Positions 1-9,544 of a stretch of DNA of 64,000 nucleotides are shown here, one piece after another (position 1 is the first letter of the stretch; each line of letters opens with the position of its first letter). Below the pieces are notes generated by a model. The model did not search any database. It saw nothing but the letters and a program-made list of their open reading frames with translations, and had not been told where the DNA came from. Made by a program: the position numbers and the translations under genes. Source of the DNA: Escherichia coli phage AZ21; sequence record LC788708.1. One strand, given 5' to 3'.

Positions 1-391
1 GACTAATGCTAAGACTTCTGAAACTAATGCTAAAGCTTCCAAATTAGCGGCAGCTACTTCGGCTACGAATGCTGCTACTAGCGAAACTAATGCATTAGCA
101 AGTAAAAATGCTGCTGCTGCATCACAAACAGCAGCAAAAACTTCTGAAACTAATGCTAAGACATCTGAGACGAATGCTGCTACTAGTGAAACTAATGCAT
201 TAGCAAGTAAAAATGCAGCAGCTAGAAGTGCCTCAGATGCTTTAGCAAGTAAAAATGCGGCAGCAGCTTCACAAATAGCAGCAAAAACTTCTGAGACTAA
301 TGCTAAGACTTCTGAAACTAATGCTAAAGCTTCTGAAATTAATGCTAAAGCTTCTGAAGCTGCCGCCGCTGCTTCTGCTGCTAGTATTATT
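1..391 (+). repeat. Tandem imperfect nucleotide repeats encoding Thr/Ser/Ala/Asn-rich peptide repeats (TSETNAK-like) inside the tail-fibre gene
   Basis: Recurring units such as aaaacttctgaaactaatgctaagac and gctactag(c/t)gaaactaatgcattagcaagtaaaaatgc appear 2-4 times each; open in the frame of the downstream ORF with no stop. Confidence 0.75.
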
Positions 392-1651
392 ATGTATGAA
401 CCTGTCCCTTATCCGGATGTTTGGATACCTTTAAATGATGATTTACGTTTACTTGCCGGTTTTGCACCTTATGAGCAACTAAATATAAACGGCAAAATCT
501 TGGAGCTTCCTTGGAAATCTATATCCCATAATAGAGGATCAACTGCCACTTATATAGATAAATCAGGAGTGCTGCAAACAGCAGGGATAAATGAGCCTAG
601 ATTTGAGCGCGCAGGGTTTTTACTAGAAGGACAATCAACTAATTATATATTAAATAGTGAAGCTCCTTTATCTTGGTCAGGAACTAATAAAGCTTTTGGA
701 ACAAAAAATGTAATACAGGATGGTACTACTAGAGCCACCACTTTTGATGGTATTATTACTTTAGCAGGTACTAATAATGCTTCTGTTGTATTTTCTTCTC
801 TTATATCTTGTGCTGTAGGAGAATTTATAACATTGTCCTGTCGTTTCAAGAGCACATACACAAAAGGATATATGTTATTTAGATTTGATTCACCGGCAGG
901 AACTAATCAGGGGCAGTTAGGTTTAAATTTCGATGGTACAACCGCTAATAATACTATCCCTGATATCCTTGTTAGGGTTGAGAATACTTTAGGAAGTGAT
1001 GGTTATTGTTATGGGGCTGTAACTTGTAAAGTTCCTGTAGCAGGTTATTATATGGGGCGTATTTACTTCATGCCTGGCGGCGGAGACACTTCAATTCCTG
1101 TAGATTCTGAAGTATTTGTTCAAACTGTTCAATGCGAAAAAAATGCCGTAGCAACTAGTTATATACCTACAACTACAGCAACAGCTACTCGTGCGAATGA
1201 GACATTATCTCTCCAACCTTCAAATAATTTAGGTTATAGGATTGTTGGAGATACTTTTAATAGAACTGTAGCACTAGAAATATCTGCCGATAGATTTTCT
1301 CCACCTACAGCAACTTATCATGACTTAATAAGAGCCCCTGGTGTTAGGTATGACATAATTATGAGGGTTACGGATACCTCTATAAGAGCATATAGAGCTT
1401 CAACAGGTCCAGTAGTTTCTGCTACACCTCCTTTCTTCAATAAAATTTATACACAAACTATAGATTCTAGTAATAAAATGACTCTATATTTTGATGGTAA
1501 TTCTAATTTTACTTTTGGGGATGCCAGGGATCCATCAACTGCACCTCAAGGATTAGAATTTGCGGGAGCATCTAGTATAGTATATCATTTAAGAAACTTT
1601 CGTATATGGCACAGAGTTCTAACAGAAGATCAAATTAGGGGTATACGCTAA
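2..1651 (+). CDS. Tail fibre protein, 5'-partial (gene continues upstream of the window)
   Basis: Frame of ORF 392..1651 stays open to position 2; repeat-rich N-terminal part then Gly/Thr/Asn-rich beta-type region; sits at the end of the late operon next to a second fibre gene. Confidence 0.6.
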   Translation, partial: TNAKTSETNAKASKLAAATSATNAATSETNALASKNAAAASQTAAKTSETNAKTSETNAATSETNALASKNAAARSASDALASKNAAAASQIAAKTSETNAKTSETNAKASEINAKASEAAAAASAASIIMYEPVPYPDVWIPLNDDLRLLAGFAPYEQLNINGKILELPWKSISHNRGSTATYIDKSGVLQTAGINEPRFERAGFLLEGQSTNYILNSEAPLSWSGTNKAFGTKNVIQDGTTRATTFDGIITLAGTNNASVVFSSLISCAVGEFITLSCRFKSTYTKGYMLFRFDSPAGTNQGQLGLNFDGTTANNTIPDILVRVENTLGSDGYCYGAVTCKVPVAGYYMGRIYFMPGGGDTSIPVDSEVFVQTVQCEKNAVATSYIPTTTATATRANETLSLQPSNNLGYRIVGDTFNRTVALEISADRFSPPTATYHDLIRAPGVRYDIIMRVTDTSIRAYRASTGPVVSATPPFFNKIYTQTIDSSNKMTLYFDGNSNFTFGDARDPSTAPQGLEFAGASSIVYHLRNFRIWHRVLTEDQIRGIR

Positions 1652-1950
1652 TGAGAGATTTATTTTTAAAATTTAAAGATGGGGATGAAATGAGCCAACA
1701 GCTAAAGGCTATTGGTTTTATTCCTGATGAGTATGGTACCTTGACTCACCCCGATATCAATTTAGATATAATAGGTACTATATCAATTTTATCTGAGGTT
1801 ATTGACGAAGGTACAGATAATCAAACAGAAAAATATATTAAAAAAGAAGGATATCATGCTAATCTTCGAGTTATAGATGATGATATTGATTTAACTTCAT
1901 TAGAAGATTACCTAGTATACCCAGAAAATCCTGTAAGAGTGTGGGCATAA
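1651..1950 (+). CDS. Hypothetical small acidic protein between the two tail-fibre genes
   Basis: 99-aa ORF, ATG overlaps the upstream stop (TAATG), same strand and operon. Confidence 0.45.
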   Translation: MRDLFLKFKDGDEMSQQLKAIGFIPDEYGTLTHPDINLDIIGTISILSEVIDEGTDNQTEKYIKKEGYHANLRVIDDDIDLTSLEDYLVYPENPVRVWA

Positions 1951-1959
1951 GGAATTAAA

Positions 1960-4077
1960 ATGGCAAATAGAATCGATACAATTAATTTAACTAGTACTGA
2001 CGTTGCTGCCTTACCTGTATATGGTTTAATTACTACAGGAACAAATTTAAATACACTTGATGGGAGTGTGTATGGAAAGTATTGGCAATCTGAAAATGCT
2101 AACTCTCCTACTTCTCTTAACTATCCTGTTGCGGCTGCAGGTACATTACTAGTTTTAAAAAATAATGCAAGCAATTTAGCGACTTCTTGTACTCAAATTT
2201 ACTTACCTTATAATCGTAATGAGATATATAGTAGATCTTTTTACAATTCATGGACTGCATGGTCAAGATTTGCTAGTATAGACATGGATGGTGCCAACTC
2301 AACTATTAAATCTTTAACAGGTTTAACCACTGCACTTTCTATAGAACAAGGAGGTACTGGAGTAGTATCAAAAGAAGCTTTTAGACAAAGTTATAATGTG
2401 CCAACAAAAGACGAAAGCCTATTGACTAAAAATAATTTATCAGATTTAGCAGATCGCGCAGCTGCGTGGCTAAATGTTCGTCCTATTGGATCTACTCCCC
2501 TTGCGGGAGATCCAGTTAATGATTATGATGCTGTAACTAAGCGTTGGGTGGAGAACAAAATTAATACTGGCATAGTAGGACCCACAATGAATGGTGTCAT
2601 GAACTATGGTGTAGGTGATTTTCACCTTCGCGATAGCCGTGCGTATATTCAACCTTATGAGGTAGTTTCTGATGGGCAGCTTCTTAACAGGGCTGACTGG
2701 CCGGAGCTTTGGGCTTACGCTCAAATGGTGGGTGCTATAGATGATTCTAAATGGCTGGCTGATAAATTTCAGCGTGGCAAGTATTCTAAGGGTGATGGAT
2801 CAACTACATTCCGCGTTCCAGACCGTAACGGCGTTCAAGTCGGTTCATTAGCCGCTCTTTATGGGCGTGGCGACGGTGCAGGAAGTGGCACGGCAAACTC
2901 AAATGCCGATGGTCTAGTGTTCGATTCAGGCGTTCCCAACATCACTGGTGATGCAGGTGGCGTTATATCTTACGGCGCTAGTGGCGCATTTTTCTATTCG
3001 GGTCAAGGAGATACCGTTGTGGGTGCGCAGCCTGGTACAAACTTAGGTACGCAACGGCTTTCGTTAAATGCTGCGGGAAGTAGTGCGGTATACGGAAGAT
3101 GCGCTGATGAAATTATGGGGCGCAACTTCGTCGGCGTCTGGGTAATACGCGCATCAGGCGGGTTCGTTGCTGCGGATACGTCGTGGAGTGTTAAGAACGC
3201 CGATAAAGGCACCCCTCCACAGAATACCTCCGTTCGTGGTGGTGAAGTAGTATCGGAATATTCCAATCCAGCAGGTAAGCGGTTTGCTCGTCTATACTCT
3301 GATACTATCTGGGGCTCCTCGGGGGCGGCGATTATTGAGGCTGAGGGCTCTGCTAAGCACTCCTATAAGTTTTACGAAGATGGTACAGTAGACTTCCGCC
3401 AGTCAGGGAAGATTAACACCTTTCATATGCACACGCCTATGGGTACATGGAATGGTATTACGGATGCAGGAATGAACAACCTAAGTACCAACGGCATGGA
3501 TAGGATAGCCATTGCGAGCGGTTCCGACACAATCATTCGTGGTTATTCTATCGGTGGATATCGCCCTAACGGATACCCCACCAAGGTTGGATACCATATG
3601 TATATTCCAGGCAATAATGCATTTGGTATAGGTTGCGTGGTAATCGGTGGAGATAACGGTAAATTCTGTCGATACTTCCTTGACATTGATGGTCAAATAT
3701 ATGGTTCGACTGATTACGGGAACTTTAGTTATACAAAAAATGGTACTTCTGACTCACGTGTAAAACACGGCATCGCCCCTGTTGGAGTTGACAAATCATA
3801 CTCTAATATTAAAGGACTGGAATTTGTAGAGTTCATTTATGACAATGACGAACAAAATCGAGTTCGGCATGGCGTGATTGCACAGCAAGCAGAGGTTGTT
3901 GAGCCTTTGTATGTTAAGACGCGCAAATATGTTGGCAATAATCCAGGAGAGGTTGTGGAGCAGAAGGAGCTGGACACCACGCCGATGCTTCTGGATACCA
4001 TGCACGTTGTGCAGGTATTGATGCAGAGGATCGAAGCGATGGAAGCTGAGATTGCGGAATTAAAGGCAAGTAAGTAA
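1960..4077 (+). CDS. Tail fibre protein with C-terminal intramolecular-chaperone-like domain (LtfB-like)
   Basis: 705 aa; RBS ggaattaaaATG; Gly-rich body; C-terminus (GIAPVGVDKSYSNIKGLEFVEF...MLLDTMHVVQVLMQRIEAMEAEIAELK) resembles the self-cleaving chaperone module of phage fibres and tailspikes. Confidence 0.65.
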   Translation: MANRIDTINLTSTDVAALPVYGLITTGTNLNTLDGSVYGKYWQSENANSPTSLNYPVAAAGTLLVLKNNASNLATSCTQIYLPYNRNEIYSRSFYNSWTAWSRFASIDMDGANSTIKSLTGLTTALSIEQGGTGVVSKEAFRQSYNVPTKDESLLTKNNLSDLADRAAAWLNVRPIGSTPLAGDPVNDYDAVTKRWVENKINTGIVGPTMNGVMNYGVGDFHLRDSRAYIQPYEVVSDGQLLNRADWPELWAYAQMVGAIDDSKWLADKFQRGKYSKGDGSTTFRVPDRNGVQVGSLAALYGRGDGAGSGTANSNADGLVFDSGVPNITGDAGGVISYGASGAFFYSGQGDTVVGAQPGTNLGTQRLSLNAAGSSAVYGRCADEIMGRNFVGVWVIRASGGFVAADTSWSVKNADKGTPPQNTSVRGGEVVSEYSNPAGKRFARLYSDTIWGSSGAAIIEAEGSAKHSYKFYEDGTVDFRQSGKINTFHMHTPMGTWNGITDAGMNNLSTNGMDRIAIASGSDTIIRGYSIGGYRPNGYPTKVGYHMYIPGNNAFGIGCVVIGGDNGKFCRYFLDIDGQIYGSTDYGNFSYTKNGTSDSRVKHGIAPVGVDKSYSNIKGLEFVEFIYDNDEQNRVRHGVIAQQAEVVEPLYVKTRKYVGNNPGEVVEQKELDTTPMLLDTMHVVQVLMQRIEAMEAEIAELKASK

Positions 4078-4080
4078 ATA

Positions 4081-4116
4081 AAAACCCCAATGGATTTTGT
4101 CCATTGGGGTTTATTA
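4081..4116. terminator. Bidirectional rho-independent terminator between convergent late and early operons
   Basis: aaaaccccaatgg-attttgt-ccattggggttt hairpin flanked by A/T runs on both sides. Confidence 0.75.
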
Positions 4117-4133
4117 TTTATTTGATATGTAAA

Positions 4134-4580
4134 TTATTTACTTCCTGAGCTTCCAAATCCGCCTTCTCCACGATCGGTCTTTCCTAATTCGTCAACGATT
4201 TCAAAGTTATGAGTTGAGTAGTGTGGTACTACTACTAGTTGACAAAGTCTTTCAAAATTCTCCAGAGTTTGAATTTCAGAACCATAGTTATAAAGGTTCA
4301 TCTTAATAGTTCCACGATAGTCTGAGTCAATCACTCCTGCGGTGTTTGCGATCATCAGATGACGCTTACCTAAAGAACTGCGAGGAACTACCAAACCGAA
4401 CCAACCTCGCGGAATTTCTACCGCGACACCGGTGTCAATCATTAGGGATTTGCCTGGTGCAATAGCACGTAAATCTGCAGCAGGGTTAGTACCAAAGAAT
4501 GCCCGCAGATCCATACCTGCGGCATCTTCGGAACCAATCTTAGGCATACAATCTGGATGAGTTAACTTAATTTTAATCAT
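4134..4580 (-). CDS. dut: dUTP pyrophosphatase
   Basis: 148 aa; motifs AAGMDLRA, GVIDSDYRG, RGEGGFGSSG typical of trimeric dUTPases. Confidence 0.9.
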   Translation of the reverse strand: MIKIKLTHPDCMPKIGSEDAAGMDLRAFFGTNPAADLRAIAPGKSLMIDTGVAVEIPRGWFGLVVPRSSLGKRHLMIANTAGVIDSDYRGTIKMNLYNYGSEIQTLENFERLCQLVVVPHYSTHNFEIVDELGKTDRGEGGFGSSGSK

Positions 4581-5452
4581 TGTTTTGCAATCTCCAAAAT
4601 ATCTTTTGTAAACTTATCTAATACGTCCTGGCCTACCGCAGCAATAGCATCCACACAGTACGTAGGTAAATCAACCAGAATTAAATTTCGGTAAAGCAAT
4701 TCTTCCGAAGCATTTAAATTCTGTATATATTTCTGTTTTCCAGGTAGTGGAAGCTGATCAATAATATCCAGAACGTTACCAAATTCACGAATAATATTAT
4801 ACCCGCGTTTTGCCCCAATACCCTCGACACCACGGATATTATCTCCTAAATCACCCATAATTGCTTTCAGAGAGATAAACTGCTCTACATCGTCAACATT
4901 ATGATGCTCATACATATCACGAAGATGGTACTCACGACGTGTTGTGAAAGAAAAACGAGAAACTTTATCTGTTAATAAAGTATCCCAGTCACCGTCTGTA
5001 GAAATTAGCCAAACATGATCATATAGATGCCCAATCAGCTTAACGATATAAGCTGCCATATCATCTGCTTCTACACCACGAATAGTGAAAGTTGGGAATG
5101 TAGTTTCACATAGTTCGAAAGCATCTTTCAAATACTCGAAGAACTGCTCATCTAACGCTTTCTCCTCTTCAGTACGCTGAGAGTATTTCTCATCTCGATT
5201 CCCTTTATACTCGGGGAGATGCTCTAAGCGGAATGCAGACTTCCCTTTATCTCCTAAAACTATTGTAGTTCTAGCGGAATAAGATTTTGCTAGAGACTGA
5301 ATAGTGGAAACATAACTTGAGGCAAATGGTTTTTTACTGTTGTTATGCTTGAAGCGAAAGCCTAAGTTAGTTCCATCGACAATCATTAGGTTACGACGGG
5401 AAGCCATTTCAGCTTCCTCTTCTTCAATAAATTTTCCCCAGGATTTACTCAT
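4577..5452 (-). CDS. 5'-3' exonuclease / flap endonuclease (T5 D15-like)
   Basis: 291 aa; N-terminal LMIVDGTNLGFRF and acidic clusters typical of FEN/PolI 5'-nuclease family; position matches T5 D15. Confidence 0.85.
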   Translation of the reverse strand: MSKSWGKFIEEEEAEMASRRNLMIVDGTNLGFRFKHNNSKKPFASSYVSTIQSLAKSYSARTTIVLGDKGKSAFRLEHLPEYKGNRDEKYSQRTEEEKALDEQFFEYLKDAFELCETTFPTFTIRGVEADDMAAYIVKLIGHLYDHVWLISTDGDWDTLLTDKVSRFSFTTRREYHLRDMYEHHNVDDVEQFISLKAIMGDLGDNIRGVEGIGAKRGYNIIREFGNVLDIIDQLPLPGKQKYIQNLNASEELLYRNLILVDLPTYCVDAIAAVGQDVLDKFTKDILEIAKQ

Positions 5453-5934
5453 TATTTAATTAAGTCCTCAACAGATGCATGATGTAGCCACGGCTCAAAT
5501 AAACCAATTACGATTTCCATGTCTTTCTTATTTAACACCATATGGGTACGACTCATTAAGTTGTCAACCATCGGGTCTGAGCTATCCAAAGCTATTAACC
5601 ACTGTCCTCTGTCTTTTTTGAATATTAATGCAGGTTTGGAGTTCATCTGCTCACCTTCACGTGAGCACTGCTGCCACCACTTCTCTAGAGTGGATTCACC
5701 AACATTAAATAAATTACTTGATATATTATCATCTTTATACCACTTAACTTCGAAGCAGTATTTACTAATGTGTCCGCTTTGTGGTGGAAGGTAGATGTCA
5801 CCTTTCAGTCCGTGGCTCTGGCCAAAAGCACCAGAGCCAGGAACACGTTCCCACTCAAGACCTGTACGTTCACGTAGAATATCTCTTACCTGATATTCCC
5901 CACGTTTACCTTTCTCTCTACTATCTACAGCCAT
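5452..5934 (-). CDS. Hypothetical protein, possible resolvase/nuclease (T5 D14 position)
   Basis: 160 aa; N-terminal REKGKRGEYQVRDIL motif; located between FEN and SbcCD-like genes. Confidence 0.4.
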   Translation of the reverse strand: MAVDSREKGKRGEYQVRDILRERTGLEWERVPGSGAFGQSHGLKGDIYLPPQSGHISKYCFEVKWYKDDNISSNLFNVGESTLEKWWQQCSREGEQMNSKPALIFKKDRGQWLIALDSSDPMVDNLMSRTHMVLNKKDMEIVIGLFEPWLHHASVEDLIK

Positions 5935-5937
5935 GTT

Positions 5938-7776
5938 TTATTCTAAGTAGGAAAATCCTTCTGCATCTTTTTTGACAGTAATCTTATGGGCCAATGGATG
6001 CGTATGCCCGTGAGAAACAATGATAGAATTTAGACTTTCTTCCTCATTTAATAATTCAACAAGGGTGTCAAGTCCTTTAGTATCAATAAAGCTAATTACT
6101 TCATCAAGGAATAGAAGATTAATATTAACTTTACTAATAGATGTTAGTAGCATTCGAATAGCTAACAGAGTTGCTAGATTGATTCTACTTTGCTGACCAG
6201 TGGAGCAGTTCTCCATACTAGTACGATTTCCATCATTGAAGATTACTACTTGTAATTTCGTTTCATCAAGCTCAAATCCAAGTGCAAACTTACCACCAGT
6301 CATAATAGAAAGGTATTTATTAATTAATTCTTCAAATACTTTCACACTATGCTCTAGCTTATACCCTACTAGATTTTTCAATGCGGCGATCAGAATATCA
6401 AGATCAGAAACAGCTTCTGATACTCCATCCAGTTTGGAAGTAATCTCAGACATTTCTGCCTCAGCTTTCTCAATCTGTTCTAGTTTCGCTTTATATTTTG
6501 CATTGGCTAATTCAACATTTGCATTATGCTCTTTGGCAATTGCAACCTTAGAACGGCCATCAGCTATTTCCTGTTCTAGTTGTCGGATTTGCACCTGTAG
6601 GTTTTGCACATTGAGTTCTTCAAAAGAAGCATCACTCATTGAATTTTTGAACTCGTCTCTAGCTGCTACTGCTTTATCCAAAGCATCCTTTGCTCTAATA
6701 TATGTAGTGTACTCAAGTTGTTCTTTCTTCAACTGTTCTAACTTAGCTTCAAGAGATTGTTTCTCTTTGAACAGAGGATCATATTCTGTTCTAGCCATAT
6801 CCATTGCTTTTTGAGCAGCAGTTGTATCCAGATGAGTACCACAAGTAGGACATTCAGTATTTGAAGCCTCTTGCTTGAACTTCTGATAACGTTTCTTGAC
6901 TTCGCCCGCACGTGAGGTCACAATCGTTAGGTCACGCGTAACACTCGAGATCTCTTCATTTTGGTCGGTGGGCGCGGGCAAATTTTTGAAAGGCTCGAAA
7001 GATTGTTCGGCAACTTGTACAGCTTTGTCCAAATTACGCAATTTAGTAATATTAGCCTCTTGAGACTTGGCTAATGCCGCCTTAATTTTCGATTCAGTAA
7101 GTTCTTGTGCTAAGGGTTCTTCGTCAAACTCAGGCACTTCGACTGGTTCCTGCAAAGTTCCCAGATTATTCTTTCCATTAAGGATTTTCGTAATTACAGC
7201 CATTTGGCCCTGCAAATTATTTAAGGTATTTGCTATTTCTTTACGGTCAGCCTTAATAGTTTCTGACATTTCTTTGTACTGTTCTTGATTGAACAAGTTA
7301 ACAAGGAAAGCCTTACGTGTTGCGTCTGTTGCTTTTAGAAAGTCTAGATTAGAACCCACTGATTGATAAATCAGTTTGGTGAATGTTTGGAAGTCACCAC
7401 CCATAATTTCTTCAATCATCTTGTATGTTTGGGTCGCCGTGTGCCCACTAATATCTTCTCCATTCTTAATAAGAGTTACTTTAGCAGTTGATTTAACTAC
7501 TTTATGTAGTTCGTACTCATCTTCATCTTTAGAGAAGTAAGCATGCATATCATACTCTTTTTTCGGAGTAGACCAAGAGAACAGAGCATCCTTCTTAATG
7601 CCACGCGAGTTCTTATTATAAAATAGTTCTTCAATAACAGTAGCGATAGTGGATTTCCCTAGCCCATTGCCACCAATTAGTTGAGTAACTGGATTCTTAT
7701 CGAAATGAATTACGATGTCCTTACCGTAAGACATAACGTTACTAAATTTTAGTGTCTTAATTGTAATCTTTGACAT
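5938..7776 (-). CDS. SbcC/Rad50-like recombination ATPase (T5 D13-like)
   Basis: Walker A GGNGLGKST near N-terminus, long coiled-coil, C-terminal LLFLDE signature; start placed at MSKITIKTLKF (7776) rather than the upstream in-frame ATG at 7857. Confidence 0.75.
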   Translation of the reverse strand: MSKITIKTLKFSNVMSYGKDIVIHFDKNPVTQLIGGNGLGKSTIATVIEELFYNKNSRGIKKDALFSWSTPKKEYDMHAYFSKDEDEYELHKVVKSTAKVTLIKNGEDISGHTATQTYKMIEEIMGGDFQTFTKLIYQSVGSNLDFLKATDATRKAFLVNLFNQEQYKEMSETIKADRKEIANTLNNLQGQMAVITKILNGKNNLGTLQEPVEVPEFDEEPLAQELTESKIKAALAKSQEANITKLRNLDKAVQVAEQSFEPFKNLPAPTDQNEEISSVTRDLTIVTSRAGEVKKRYQKFKQEASNTECPTCGTHLDTTAAQKAMDMARTEYDPLFKEKQSLEAKLEQLKKEQLEYTTYIRAKDALDKAVAARDEFKNSMSDASFEELNVQNLQVQIRQLEQEIADGRSKVAIAKEHNANVELANAKYKAKLEQIEKAEAEMSEITSKLDGVSEAVSDLDILIAALKNLVGYKLEHSVKVFEELINKYLSIMTGGKFALGFELDETKLQVVIFNDGNRTSMENCSTGQQSRINLATLLAIRMLLTSISKVNINLLFLDEVISFIDTKGLDTLVELLNEEESLNSIIVSHGHTHPLAHKITVKKDAEGFSYLE

Positions 7777-8734
7777 ATTTCGCAGCTCTAGCCAAGATTC
7801 TATCAATGTCGCCTTGAGATAGCTTCTCGACTTCACGGAAGTAAAGTTCAAGTTCACCTAACATATCAAGATCAACAAGATTTAACTTAGCATCTTTAGT
7901 AACTCGATGGTTAATCTTCTTATCTAATAAATCAGAGTCTTTGATAGACTTTAATTGAACAACGTCACCAGTAACTTCATAGACTACACGATCATAATCA
8001 CTAGGTTCCATCTCTTCACCAGCTCCGATTGTTTTACGAATCAGTTGTGGTAAATCACCGAGTTCGATCCATTCTACTTTTAATGTGTCGGTATCAACGA
8101 TAAAGCAACCATTTGTACCTTTTGTGCGTTCTCTATGGAACGATGTAGTTAATGGAGAGCCTGGGTAGAGGAGTCTAGTAGACCCGATAGTCTGGCTATT
8201 AGCATAAGAATGTAAATCGCCAGCAATTACAGTATCATAACAGTTGTACTTAGTTAGATCAATTTCTGGTTTTACATGTGGAGGGATTTCACCACGAACA
8301 TGCGTGAAACATAGTTTTGATTCAGATGGTTTCCACTTAGACTTATGGATTTCATCATACGGAACAATATCAAATTCAGGGGAACGATATGGTTTGGTAA
8401 CTACTTCCCACTTCCCACTCGTTACTTTATTAATAACTCCTGCATAATGATATAGGCATGAAATGGTTTTAGTTAACATTTCATGATTTCCAGTAAAGAT
8501 TTTGCCTGGATGGTCAAGTCTTGACATGAACTGTTCAAGCAGTTCTATTTCTTCTGACGACGGGTCGGCAACATCAAGTATATCACCACCAGCAATATGA
8601 AGATCACAGTTATGATTATGGAATATATCATTTAACCGTTCTCCTAGCATCAGGAAGCGACGCTTCTGCCATTCCTTTGGAACTTTATCTTGTCCTAGTT
8701 TGATATGATGATCAGCACTAAATAATATTCTCAT
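7757..8734 (-). CDS. SbcD/Mre11-like nuclease (T5 D12-like)
   Basis: 325 aa; calcineurin-like phosphoesterase motifs MRILFSADHH, GGDILD, GNHE; adjacent to the SbcC-like gene. Confidence 0.8.
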   Translation of the reverse strand: MRILFSADHHIKLGQDKVPKEWQKRRFLMLGERLNDIFHNHNCDLHIAGGDILDVADPSSEEIELLEQFMSRLDHPGKIFTGNHEMLTKTISCLYHYAGVINKVTSGKWEVVTKPYRSPEFDIVPYDEIHKSKWKPSESKLCFTHVRGEIPPHVKPEIDLTKYNCYDTVIAGDLHSYANSQTIGSTRLLYPGSPLTTSFHRERTKGTNGCFIVDTDTLKVEWIELGDLPQLIRKTIGAGEEMEPSDYDRVVYEVTGDVVQLKSIKDSDLLDKKINHRVTKDAKLNLVDLDMLGELELYFREVEKLSQGDIDRILARAAKYVKDYN

Positions 8735-8737
8735 TGG

Positions 8738-8763
8738 TTAAAAAGAAAGGGGCCGAAGCCCCT
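8738..8763 (-). terminator. Hairpin plus T-run immediately upstream of the SbcD-like start
   Basis: Minus-strand reading aggggcttcggcccct followed by ttcttttt, then aacc and ATG. Confidence 0.5.
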
Positions 8764-8770
8764 CTATTTA

Positions 8771-9544
8771 TTAGTCGTCCAGATCGCTTGCAGCTTCTGT
8801 GTCAATACCTTTCTGGGAGCCTGCATTGCTATTACCAGATTTGGCATCATCATCTTTATTCTCACGACCCTCCATGAAGGCTTGAATTGCTTCTTTCTGC
8901 TCTTCATAGGTAGGAACCGGATAGGTTTGTTCCAGAGAAGGAACTTTTTCGAACTTAATGATGTCGCCATCTTCATCACACATAGCTTCACCGATCATAT
9001 CTACATCCGCAGCATATTGCTTGGATTCCGCACTGTTAGGATCTTGCAGCTTAATCTGGAACTGCATAGCAGCAATCTGCTGTACATCATACTCAGTATC
9101 GAAACCTTTACCTTTTTTCTCGATAGAAATATCAATATCAAACGGAGTTGCCAGACTCAGCTGCTTCATGATAGACTGGATGCCTTTCAGAATAGTAGGC
9201 TTGACTTCCATTACTTTCAGTTTGTTATCAGAACGGTCAATAACAAAAGCGATATAGTTTTTCTTCGGTTTCAGCGGAACACGATTACCATCTTTATCCA
9301 GCTCTTTCTCGAAGAAGCCCATCTCATGAACCGGATCAGCTTTACCACGAACAAAGCTCTCTTTGTCACGGTTAAAACGGAGACATTCGAAAGGAGCTAC
9401 GCTACCCTCTTTATTAGTCAGCCAATAGACATAACGTGGAAGAACACCAGAAACGATACGAACACGAGTGATACCGTTGTTGAACTTCAGGAATTCGATT
9501 TTATCGTTAGAACCGCCAGTAGTTTCGCCCCAAGACTTAGCCAT
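8771..9544 (-). CDS. Hypothetical protein with acidic C-terminal tail, possible ssDNA-binding protein (T5 D11 position)
   Basis: 257 aa; C-terminus DTEAASDLDD is acidic as in SSB tails; no diagnostic catalytic motif. Confidence 0.4.
   Translation of the reverse strand: MAKSWGETTGGSNDKIEFLKFNNGITRVRIVSGVLPRYVYWLTNKEGSVAPFECLRFNRDKESFVRGKADPVHEMGFFEKELDKDGNRVPLKPKKNYIAFVIDRSDNKLKVMEVKPTILKGIQSIMKQLSLATPFDIDISIEKKGKGFDTEYDVQQIAAMQFQIKLQDPNSAESKQYAADVDMIGEAMCDEDGDIIKFEKVPSLEQTYPVPTYEEQKEAIQAFMEGRENKDDDAKSGNSNAGSQKGIDTEAASDLDD

What the first reader, a model, noticed from the sequence alone, without database searches (positions are those of the whole stretch)
1..4077. Two consecutive tail-fibre genes: one with a tandem-repeat N-terminal stalk, one with a C-terminal intramolecular-chaperone module
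The first fibre gene (partial) contains near-identical DNA repeats encoding TSETNAK-like units, a substrate for repeat expansion or contraction that would change fibre length. The second (705 aa) ends in a segment resembling self-cleaving chaperone domains. Together with the 99-aa ORF between them this resembles branched lateral-fibre systems of T5-like phages and is the likely host-range determinant.
Basis: partly seen in the sequence, partly recalled or inferred. Interest (0 to 1): 0.4.

Follow-up and report, generated by a model that had tools for sequence, protein, structure and literature searches.

The report
T5-like phage lateral tail-fibre locus
This is the side-fibre (host-recognition) gene cluster of a T5-like coliphage: a long repeat-built fibre with a sugar-binding head, a small conserved partner protein, and a second fibre that trims off its own folding chaperone. 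The kind of locus is already known, but the role of the small protein is not.

Summary
The window is Escherichia phage AZ23 (Tequintavirus; LC788707.1 from record nt 73), and nt 1-4077 is the 3' end of the late tail operon.

**Fibre 1** (nt 2-1651, partial; about 730 aa in full) has three parts:
- a T5 Ltf-type N-terminus;
- a stalk of about 250 aa in an unbroken 7-residue (TSETNAK) register;
- a 414-aa head made of two concanavalin-A-like lectin domains. It has no S74 domain.

**The 99-aa ORF** (1651-1950) overlaps the fibre-1 stop codon. It belongs to an uncharacterised family that always follows this head type.

**Fibre 2** (1960-4077) is homologous to DT57C LtfA/LtfB. It ends in a Peptidase_S74 chaperone with the T596-S597...K602 autocleavage motif.

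Repeat number is identical in the closest relative, IME178. An apparent 37-aa difference was an assembly end-overlap artefact. Repeat number does differ among more distant Tequintaviruses (stalk 266-382 aa).

The three-gene cassette recurs behind unrelated virion-attachment domains in several siphovirus lineages and in one Aeromonas phage that encodes a tail sheath. This argues that fibre 2 docks on fibre 1 or the small protein. The docking elements of the DT57C model are absent.

The finding is ordinary overall; the small protein is the open question.

The parts
2..1651 (+). Fibre 1 (LtfA-like lateral tail fibre), C-terminal 549 codons plus stop. The 5' end lies off the window.
   Evidence: Open frame. 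100% coverage by LC788707.1 at offset +72. The full gene reconstructed from the record ends is 730 aa after removing a 111-nt end overlap. The N-terminal 233 aa are 49% identical to DT57C LtfA. PHROG tail and tail-fibre families match.
2..391 (+). Distal part of the heptad-repeat (TSETNAK-type) Ala/Ser/Thr-rich stalk. [quoted passage not shown]
   Evidence: Searches show the DNA repeats. SE dipeptides keep one phase modulo 7 from aa 61 to 299 of the full protein. The homologous proximal part of DT57C LtfA is seen as a three-helix coiled coil by cryo-EM (PMC10713586).
284..358 (+). Best tandem array: 21-nt unit x3.6, 90% matches.
   Evidence: pattern count against shuffles.
407..424 (+). Stalk/head junction motif P-Y-P-D-V-W, conserved in all fibre-1 homologues. 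Left boundary of the swapped module.
   Evidence: The PxPDVW motif is found in every homologue examined. Identity to IME178 falls from >90% to 28-65% after about nt 420.
392..1648 (+). Fibre-1 head: two concanavalin-A-like / LamG-like beta-sandwich lectin domains. No S74 domain.
1651..1950 (+). 99-aa conserved accessory protein (phrog_1361, function unknown). Its start codon overlaps the fibre-1 stop (TAATG).
1960..4077 (+). Fibre 2 (LtfB-like distal fibre), 705 aa. RBS AAGGA at 1949-1953.
   Evidence: PDB 8hqz_d (DT57C LtfA) aa 528-1074, E 8.6e-130. 45% identity to LtfA and 41% to LtfB. phrog_6921 tail fibre, E 1e-177.
1960..2271 (+). Fibre-2 N-terminal region. It holds the conserved anchor peptide MANRIDTINL... 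(aa 1-~25) and a possible pyocin-fibre knob-like domain (aa 27-104).
   Evidence: In 79 of 80 IMG/VR loci, and in the Leclercia prophage, a gene starts 9-11 nt after the small ORF with MA[NLMK]R[IKQN]D[ST]. The match to R2 pyocin fibre 6ct8 is weak (E 0.013).
2761..3120 (+). Hypervariable segment of fibre 2 (aa 268-387), lying between conserved TTFRVPDRNG and FVGVWVIRASGG strands. Candidate receptor-binding loops.
   Evidence: Identity to IME178 drops to 31-75% here, between flanks at or near 100% on the 5' side and 76-100% on the 3' side. The Pfam phage tail Collar hint is weak (E 0.13).
3748..4074 (+). C-terminal intramolecular chaperone (Peptidase_S74), aa 597-705. Predicted scissile bond T596|S597 (Ser codon 3748-3750); Lys602 codon 3763-3765.
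   Evidence: Pfam PF13884, E 3.2e-8. The motif GTSDSRVK aligns with DT57C LtfA/LtfB and other S74 fibres. The T5 pb1 mechanism uses Thr1263-Ser1264 and Lys1269 (PMC4690869).
4082..4112 (.). Bidirectional intrinsic terminator between fibre 2 and the convergent dut gene. It marks the end of the late tail operon.
   Evidence: A 13-14-bp stem with T-runs on both strands.

Best explanation
This is the lateral (L-shaped) tail-fibre locus of a Tequintavirus. It most likely encodes a composite fibre with two receptor-binding proteins.

**Fibre 1.** It trimerises and plugs its T5-Ltf-type N-terminus into the LtfC collar. This follows from homology to the DT57C structure. A run of about 35 heptads in one unbroken register forms a thin alpha-helical coiled-coil rod (inferred). 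The rod ends in a head of two lectin-fold beta-sandwiches that probably bind surface polysaccharide (inferred from fold).

**The 99-aa protein.** It is translationally coupled to fibre 1. It is the conserved island between two hypervariable modules. I take it to be a partner of the conserved base of the fibre-1 head. Either it is an assembly factor, or, as I favour slightly, it is a retained adaptor.

**Fibre 2.** It has no virion-attachment domain of its own. I infer that it docks by its conserved N-terminal peptide onto the fibre-1 head and/or the small protein. Its C-terminal S74 domain drives trimer folding and then cuts itself off at Thr596|Ser597, which exposes the distal binding domain (motif shown, cleavage inferred).

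**Function of the whole.** The fibres give reversible, glycan-specific first contact and so shape host range on O-antigen-bearing strains. Irreversible binding is done elsewhere, by pb5.

**The repeat DNA.** It sets stalk length. Among Tequintaviruses it differs by indels, several of which span whole repeat units. It is identical in length in the closest relative.
For: **Identity and context.**

**Fibre-1 N-terminus and stalk.** Homology to DT57C LtfA and the collar-LtfA cryo-EM structure (PMC10713586). Heptad register.

**Head.** Lectin folds. The AKFV33 homologue ORF137 is a virion protein by mass spectrometry (PMC3326045).

**S74 domain.**; motif position; mechanism from PMC4690869.

**Cassette logic.**
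- In every locus examined, the same order (fibre-1 head, small ORF, then usually fibre 2) sits behind different virion-attachment N-termini.
- These N-termini are T5 Ltf-type, lambda Stf-type, Drexlerviridae-type and Queuovirinae-type.
- The fibre-2 N-terminus comes in types that track the fibre-1 C-terminus and small-protein type.
- 79 of 80 IMG/VR loci have a downstream gene with the MANRxD N-terminus, although the bodies of those genes are unrelated.
- The small protein is conserved (mean p-distance 0.13) between a hypervariable head (0.60-0.65) and fibre 2 (0.44-0.59).

**Expression signals.** Overlapping stop/start and RBS; terminator.

**Stalk-length polymorphism.**
Against: - No physical evidence here shows that fibre 2 is attached to fibre 1, or that the small protein is in the virion.
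- The small protein persists in phages with no fibre 2 (Lambda_ev066, Perceval, Aeromonas phage 14AhydR10PP). This fits a fibre-1 chaperone at least as well as an adaptor.
- Its fold matches no known chaperone or adaptor.
- The distance-correlation test between the small protein and its neighbours was uninformative (r 0.05-0.30).
- The conserved N-terminal third of the head is also conserved in the wider GTA-spike-fibre family, so that conservation may reflect fold rather than a docking surface.
- Lectin-fold similarity does not identify a ligand.
- AZ23 and IME178 show no indel in the repeats despite 10% substitutions.
Confidence: 0.7

Rival explanations
1. The 99-aa protein is only a folding or trimerisation chaperone for the fibre-1 head, like a Tfa, and is not a virion component. 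Fibre 2 then binds the fibre-1 head directly.
For: - It sits in the classical position immediately after the fibre gene, with overlapping stop and start codons.
- It is retained where fibre 2 is absent.
- It was swapped together with the head between AZ23 and IME178.
Against: - Concanavalin-A-like domains generally fold without dedicated chaperones (general knowledge).
- The protein is far more conserved than the head it would serve.
- It has no sequence or fold similarity to Tfa, gp38 or gp57A-type chaperones.
Confidence: 0.35
2. The two fibres are independent. Fibre 2 attaches to the tail tip on its own, or is an alternative to fibre 1, so there is no composite or branched fibre.
For: - There is no direct evidence of a fibre-1/fibre-2 contact.
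- Weak densities in the DT57C tail-tip map were interpreted as LtfB folded back onto the tail tip (PMC10713586).
Against: - Fibre 2 has no T5 Ltf-like N-terminus.
- The same fibre-2 N-terminal motifs occur in phages with unrelated tails. The docking partner should therefore be encoded inside the cassette.
- In DT57C no robust density attributable to LtfB was found on the core of the virion, and only LtfA was resolved in the LtfC collar (PMC10713586).
Confidence: 0.1
3. The heptad DNA repeats are simply the footprint of a coiled-coil rod. They are evolutionarily stable and are not an active length-variation mechanism.
For: - AZ23 and IME178 stalks are colinear (316 aa each, no gaps) despite 10% amino-acid divergence.
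- The apparent 37-aa difference was a 111-nt record end overlap.
- The repeat copies are diverged; the longest exact repeat within the window is 39 nt.
Against: Among Tequintaviruses with near-identical N-termini, the stalks differ by indels. Examples are one heptad, a 25-aa unit, and a net 98 aa (14 heptads) in VSe12.
Confidence: 0.4

Closest known systems
DT57C / DT571-2 branched lateral tail fibres (LtfA + LtfB; Golomidova 2016, PMC4728585; Ayala 2023, PMC10713586)
   Same: - Same phage genus and the same locus, from ltfC through the fibres to dut.
- The fibre-1 N-terminus and proximal stalk are homologous to LtfA (49% identity over 233 aa).
- Fibre 2 is homologous to LtfA aa 528-1076 and to LtfB (45% and 41% identity) and carries an S74 chaperone.
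- There are two receptor-binding proteins, and only the first has a collar-binding N-terminus.
   Different: - Fibre 1 ends in lectin-fold domains and has no S74.
- It lacks the phiEco32 gp14-like region (LtfA 223-471) proposed as the LtfB docking site.
- The fibre-2 N-terminus is unrelated to the gp15-like 45 aa of LtfB.
- A conserved 99-aa gene lies between the fibre genes; DT57C has none.
T5 pb1 (Ltf) L-shaped tail fibre
   Same: It uses a collar-binding N-terminus. It matures through a C-terminal S74 intramolecular chaperone with a Thr-Ser...Lys motif (PMC4690869). It gives reversible binding to the O-antigen.
   Different: T5 uses one 1396-aa polypeptide. Here the functions are split over two fibres plus a small protein.
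AKFV33-type three-gene ltf loci (orf137-orf136-orf135) and the equivalent loci of IrisVonRoten (Bas32), Lindwurm, EC100 and others
   Same: The gene order, sizes and spacing are the same, as are the head fold type, the small ORF family and the S74 fibre 2. AKFV33 ORF137 has been shown to be a virion protein (PMC3326045).
   Different: They belong to different cassette types: the fibre-1 C-terminus, the small ORF (88-92 aa) and the fibre-2 N-terminus (MVTKTVIPTDITKLK / MTTYTNIPQDITKLK) all differ. The AZ23 head and small ORF belong to a Leclercia-prophage-like lineage.
RcGTA head spike fibre Rcc01080 (PDB 6tb9) / NCBIfam GTA_spike_fiber domain
   Same: The first head domain is a sequence-detectable homologue.
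   Different: Here the domain sits at the tip of a tail side fibre and is followed by a second, LamG-like domain.

Membership tests
Peptidase_S74 C-terminal intramolecular chaperone (endosialidase / T5 pb1 type) | Sequence match to PF13884 above the gathering threshold, at the extreme C-terminus of a fibre or spike | tested here: met
   aa 597-649 of 705, 34.2 bits against a cut-off of 22, E 3.2e-8.
Peptidase_S74 C-terminal intramolecular chaperone (endosialidase / T5 pb1 type) | Scissile Thr/x-Ser with a Lys five residues downstream (T5: T1263-S1264...K1269) | tested here: met
   G-T596-S597-D-S-R-V-K602. The T5 residues are from PMC4690869.
Peptidase_S74 C-terminal intramolecular chaperone (endosialidase / T5 pb1 type) | Actual autoproteolytic release of the domain from the mature trimer | not testable with these tools
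   Needs SDS-PAGE or mass spectrometry of virions, or of recombinant protein with and without S597A.
T5-like (Tequintavirus) lateral tail-fibre locus | Position downstream of pb3, pb4 and the collar gene ltfC, convergent with dut | tested here: met
   the same synteny is seen in 10 other Tequintaviruses.
T5-like (Tequintavirus) lateral tail-fibre locus | First fibre has the T5 Ltf / LtfA collar-binding N-terminus | tested here: met
   Reconstructed from the source record, outside the window. The first ~115 aa are nearly identical in 9 Tequintaviruses and 49% identical to DT57C LtfA over 233 aa.
DT57C-type branched LTF (LtfA/LtfB) | LtfA carries the phiEco32 gp14-like region (aa 223-471) proposed to dock LtfB | tested here: not met
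   BLASTP aligns fibre 1 to LtfA only in LtfA's N-terminal/stalk region (aa 1-~265), as stalk-repeat matches.
DT57C-type branched LTF (LtfA/LtfB) | LtfB N-terminal 45 aa are phiEco32 gp15-like | tested here: not met
   Fibre 2 aligns to LtfB only from aa 111 onward.
DT57C-type branched LTF (LtfA/LtfB) | Both fibre proteins end in S74 chaperones | tested here: not met
   Fibre 1 has no S74 hit; fibre 2 does.
DT57C-type branched LTF (LtfA/LtfB) | Second fibre physically carried by the first | not testable with these tools
   Only indirect cassette-portability evidence is available.
GTA_spike_fiber / ConA-like lectin head | Match to NF048003 above cut-off and a beta-sandwich lectin fold | tested here: met
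Tail-fibre assembly chaperones (Tfa / gp38 / gp57A) | Sequence or fold similarity of the 99-aa protein to a known chaperone family | tested here: not met

The most novel reading that the evidence does not exclude
The roughly 90-100-aa protein family (phrog_1361) may form a portable junction. The other parts of the junction would be the conserved base and C-terminal strand of the lectin head and the conserved N-terminal peptide of the downstream fibre. Such a junction would let any side fibre of this type carry a second, freely exchangeable receptor-binding fibre. It would be a fibre-branching adaptor distinct from the phiEco32 gp14/gp15 (DT57C) and T4 gp10-like adaptors. It would be shared by Demerecviridae, Drexlerviridae, Queuovirinae, lambdoid prophages and other small siphoviruses.
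Probability: 0.4. Interest if true: 0.55.

Novelty: new member of a known kind. Interest (0 to 1): 0.3.

Why it matters
Lateral fibres decide which O-antigen types a T5-like phage can adsorb to. Correct parsing of this locus is therefore what host-range prediction or engineering needs. The pieces are the stalk, the lectin head, the accessory protein, the S74-matured second fibre and the swap boundaries at about nt 420, about nt 1950 and nt 2761-3120.

The AZ23 head and small-ORF module is at most 60% identical to anything in the databases searched, and its nearest relatives are in Leclercia prophages. This illustrates cross-genus module exchange.

There is also a practical point. Short-read assemblies of this gene are routinely broken or padded in the repeats, so published fibre lengths should not be trusted without long reads.

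The uncharacterised small protein is a tractable target. One virion proteomics run or one co-fold would say whether it is a new fibre adaptor.

Tried and rejected
1. **Naive joining of the record ends.** Joining the two ends of LC788707.1 gave a 767-aa fibre 1 and a '37-aa insertion' relative to IME178. I rejected this. The last and first 111 nt of the record are identical. The duplication breaks the heptad register. Removing it gives perfect colinearity with IME178.
2. **Word-indexed search for the small ORF.** It found only one relative. The exhaustive HMMER search was needed.
3. **Locus search with the 47-sequence alignment.** It failed for lack of a conserved stretch. A 6-sequence alignment worked, but it returned a narrow, Leclercia-like sample. 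The genome-contig scan gave only 5 loci.
5. **Distance-matrix correlation.** I compared the small protein with the fibre-1 and fibre-2 segments to choose between chaperone and adaptor. The correlations were weak and uninformative.
6. **'The small ORF co-varies with the head'.** I first inferred this from AZ23 against IME178. It does not hold generally, because within the Leclercia-type set the small protein is conserved while heads vary.
7. **Programmed read-through from the small ORF into fibre 2.** The two are in the same frame here. I rejected this because the spacer is 9-11 nt in relatives.
8. **Homology of the small protein to the RcGTA spike base.** There is no sequence hit and no such chain among the listed fold matches.


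Full report
**What the sequence is**

The first 7.2 kb of the window are identical, apart from two bases, to Escherichia coli phage AZ23 (LC788707.1; Demerecviridae, Tequintavirus), starting at record position 73. Downstream on the opposite strand lie dut, the D15 flap endonuclease, D14 and the SbcCD-like D12/D13 genes. The other end of the same record carries the genes in the positions of the tape-measure protein, pb9, pb3, pb4 and the 140-aa collar protein LtfC, all annotated as hypothetical there. They are followed by 580 unannotated bases that open the first fibre gene. The finding therefore covers the 3' end of the late tail operon of a T5-like phage. This is the ltf locus.

**Check of the observation**

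The repeats are real:
- Tandem Repeats Finder reports a 21-nt unit x3.6 at 284-358 (90% matches) and x2.6 at 144-198.
- 63-nt and 147-nt higher-order copies occur within 1-379.
- The unit occurs five times with three or fewer mismatches, all within nt 14-349, against none in 100 shuffles.

Pfam Peptidase_S74 matches aa 597-649 of the 705-aa protein above threshold.

**Fibre 1**

Joining the record ends gives an in-frame gene, but the last 111 nt of the record equal its first 111 nt. With one copy removed the protein is 730 aa. It is then colinear, with no gap, with the 729-aa protein of the closest relative, IME178. Every Ser-Glu dipeptide from residue 61 to 299 (one exception) falls in the same phase modulo 7. 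That is about 35 consecutive heptads.

The N-terminal ~115 residues are almost invariant in nine Tequintaviruses. The first 233 residues are 49% identical to DT57C LtfA. In DT57C, cryo-EM shows the LtfA N-terminus held in the LtfC dodecamer, with the chain continuing as a three-helix coiled coil (PMC10713586). I infer that the heptad region here is the same kind of rod.

After a conserved PxPDVW junction comes a 414-aa head. The evidence on the head is:
- It matches NCBIfam GTA_spike_fiber (E 1e-20).
- It matches the RcGTA head spike fibre 6tb9 (E 2.5e-7).
- It matches Laminin_G_3 weakly, below cut-off.
- An AF2 model (pLDDT 86.6) gives two beta-sandwiches.
- There is no S74 domain.
- Conservation across 46 homologues is concentrated in the first ~110 residues, a SYIPT...TR linker and the last ~25 residues. 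The rest is variable.

The RBPseg atlas of BASEL fibres already records coiled-coil rods ending in lectin-like beta-sandwich heads (PMC12143355). The AKFV33 homologue (ORF137) is a virion protein by mass spectrometry (PMC3326045).

**The 99-aa ORF**

Homologues occur in 156 phage records. In every locus I opened, the ORF sits directly after a fibre-1-type gene ending in ...NFRIWH(R/K)xLT...:
- eleven Tequintaviruses;
- Seuratvirus VogelGryff and Nonagvirus BRET;
- the drexlervirus tonn;
- lambdoid or unclassified siphoviruses (Lambda_ev066, Perceval, PhiR49, HannyBb);
- a Leclercia prophage;
- an Aeromonas phage that encodes a tail sheath

.

**Fibre 2**

From residue 151 it is homologous to DT57C LtfA residues 528-1074 (E 8.6e-130 against PDB 8hqz), and it also aligns to LtfB. 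Its C-terminus carries G-T596-S597-D-S-R-V-K602. This aligns with the S74 motif of other fibres and corresponds to T1263-S1264...K1269 of T5 pb1, where the Thr-Ser bond is cut and the chaperone leaves with the serine (PMC4690869). The predicted products are a 596-aa mature fibre and a 109-aa released chaperone.

Residues 27-104 weakly resemble the R2 pyocin fibre knob (E 0.013). A bidirectional terminator at 4082-4112 closes the operon.

**Mosaic structure**

Identity to IME178 along the window is as follows:

| Window nt | Identity to IME178 | Content |
|---|---|---|
| 1-420 | 91-98%, one 60-nt bin at 73% | stalk |
| 421-~1920 | 28-65% | fibre-1 head plus the whole small ORF |
| 1921-2040 | 80-85% | transition |
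| 2041-2760 | 93-100% | fibre 2, aa 28-267 |
| 2761-3120 | 31-75% | fibre 2, aa 268-387 |
| 3121-3720 | 76-96% | fibre 2, distal part |
| 3721-4140 | 98-100% | S74 chaperone |

The AZ23 head has no homologue above 60% identity among 5.8 billion proteins. The nearest are 560-aa proteins of Leclercia prophages. One such prophage has gpJ, then the fibre, a 100-aa ORF and a 294-aa S74 fibre, with the same spacing. A species-level genome scan finds this small-ORF type only in Leclercia, Atlantibacter and Silvania.

**How fibre 2 is probably held**

Fibre 2 has no collar-binding N-terminus. It also lacks the phiEco32 gp15-like peptide of LtfB, and fibre 1 lacks the gp14-like region of LtfA (PMC4728585). 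The DT57C docking scheme therefore does not apply.

Fibre-2 N-termini come in types that track the cassette rather than the phage:
- MANRIDxINL follows heads ending NFRIWHRxLTxxQIxG(I/L)R.
- M(V/A)T.T.IP.DI..LK follows heads ending ...WHKxLTD....
- MTTYTNIPxDITKLK follows heads ending ...WNRVLTDSQMRE..

This holds in Tequintaviruses, Queuovirinae, a drexlervirus and lambdoid phages, whose fibre-1 N-termini are unrelated.

In 80 IMG/VR loci, 79 have a gene starting 9-11 nt after the small ORF with MA.R.D(S/T). Its body is otherwise of at least ten different kinds, and 53 of the 80 carry S74. In the 75 of these loci that could be compared, the small protein is the conserved island (mean distance 0.13) between a hypervariable head (0.60-0.65) and fibre 2 (0.44-0.59).

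The simplest reading is that the docking partner of fibre 2 is encoded inside the cassette. It would be the conserved base of the head, the small protein, or both.

Against a pure adaptor role, the small ORF is retained in three phages that have no fibre 2. I cannot separate 'adaptor' from 'head-specific assembly factor' with these tools.

**Repeat number**

| Phage | Stalk length (start to PxPDVW), aa |
|---|---|
| AZ23 | 316 |
| IME178 | 316 |
| AKFV33 | 351 |
| IrisVonRoten | 364 |
| JLBYU40 | 364 |
| Lindwurm | 375 |
| EC100 | 382 |
| T5_ev219 | 382 |
| VSe12 | 266 |

SExNA heptads number 5 to 17 across these phages. Indels include one heptad, a 25-aa unit, and a net 98 aa (14 heptads) in VSe12.

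The closest pair shows none. The relevant assemblies are also unreliable:
- fp01 has an N run and a frameshifted annotation.
- HMD-P3 has Ns and junk sequence.
- AZ23 is broken exactly there.

**Verdict**

The locus is an ordinary member of a known class, the multi-protein lateral tail-fibre locus of T5-like phages (PMC4728585, PMC8594841), with a new head allele. It is not a DT57C-type system in its docking elements. The one unexplained component is the conserved small protein.

Noticed in passing
LC788707.1 record ends (L003 last 111 nt; L001 first 111 nt); window 1-39: The deposited 'complete sequence' of AZ23 has an exact 111-nt overlap between its two ends, inside the fibre-1 repeat region. 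Circularising without trimming creates a false 37-codon duplication that breaks the heptad register.
   Followed up: yes
L005 (fp01, MH745368.2) about 6050-6230; L004 (HMD-P3, PQ462667.1) about 6060-6130: Relatives' assemblies carry N runs in the same repeat DNA. In HMD-P3 there is also a junk peptide (...SEERRVGKECFLRCRSRWSPYH). In both, the fibre gene is annotated as two frameshifted pieces.
   Followed up: partly
window 1528 and 1550: These are the only two differences from LC788707.1 in the first 7.2 kb. Both are non-synonymous and lie in the LamG-like domain (Arg/Ser and Gly/Arg). An independent Logan contig (DRR569831_122931, 99.6% identical over window 308-2472) shares one allele with each.
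   Followed up: partly
window 1948-1962: The small ORF and fibre 2 are in the same reading frame, separated by TAA plus 9 nt. In relatives the spacer is 9-11 nt, so this is not a conserved read-through arrangement.
   Followed up: yes
L008 (Lambda_ev066) 5292-9126; L106 (Perceval) 3792-7276: In these lambdoid phages the position of fibre 2 is occupied by a 97-aa predicted membrane protein, followed by a sitABCD manganese/iron transporter cargo.
   Followed up: no
L098 (Salmonella phage VSe12) 4279-6018: Fibre 2 appears disrupted. It is annotated as a 277-aa piece starting after a 119-nt gap, plus an 80-aa fragment. The same phage has the shortest fibre-1 stalk (266 aa).
   Followed up: no
window 300-434 (+): The listed 44-aa ORF (MLRLLKLMLKLLKL...) is just the heptad-repeat DNA read in another frame. 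The same wrong frame is what fp01's annotation runs into.
   Followed up: yes
window 3108-4057: The distal domain and chaperone of fibre 2 share 79-85% nucleotide identity with fibre genes of unrelated E. coli phages. These include Wifcevirus myoviruses (WFH, WFC, ManiWeber Bas99), PEC14/PEC9, the Seuratvirus VogelGryff and the Nonagvirus BRET. This points to wide horizontal spread of this tip module.
   Followed up: partly
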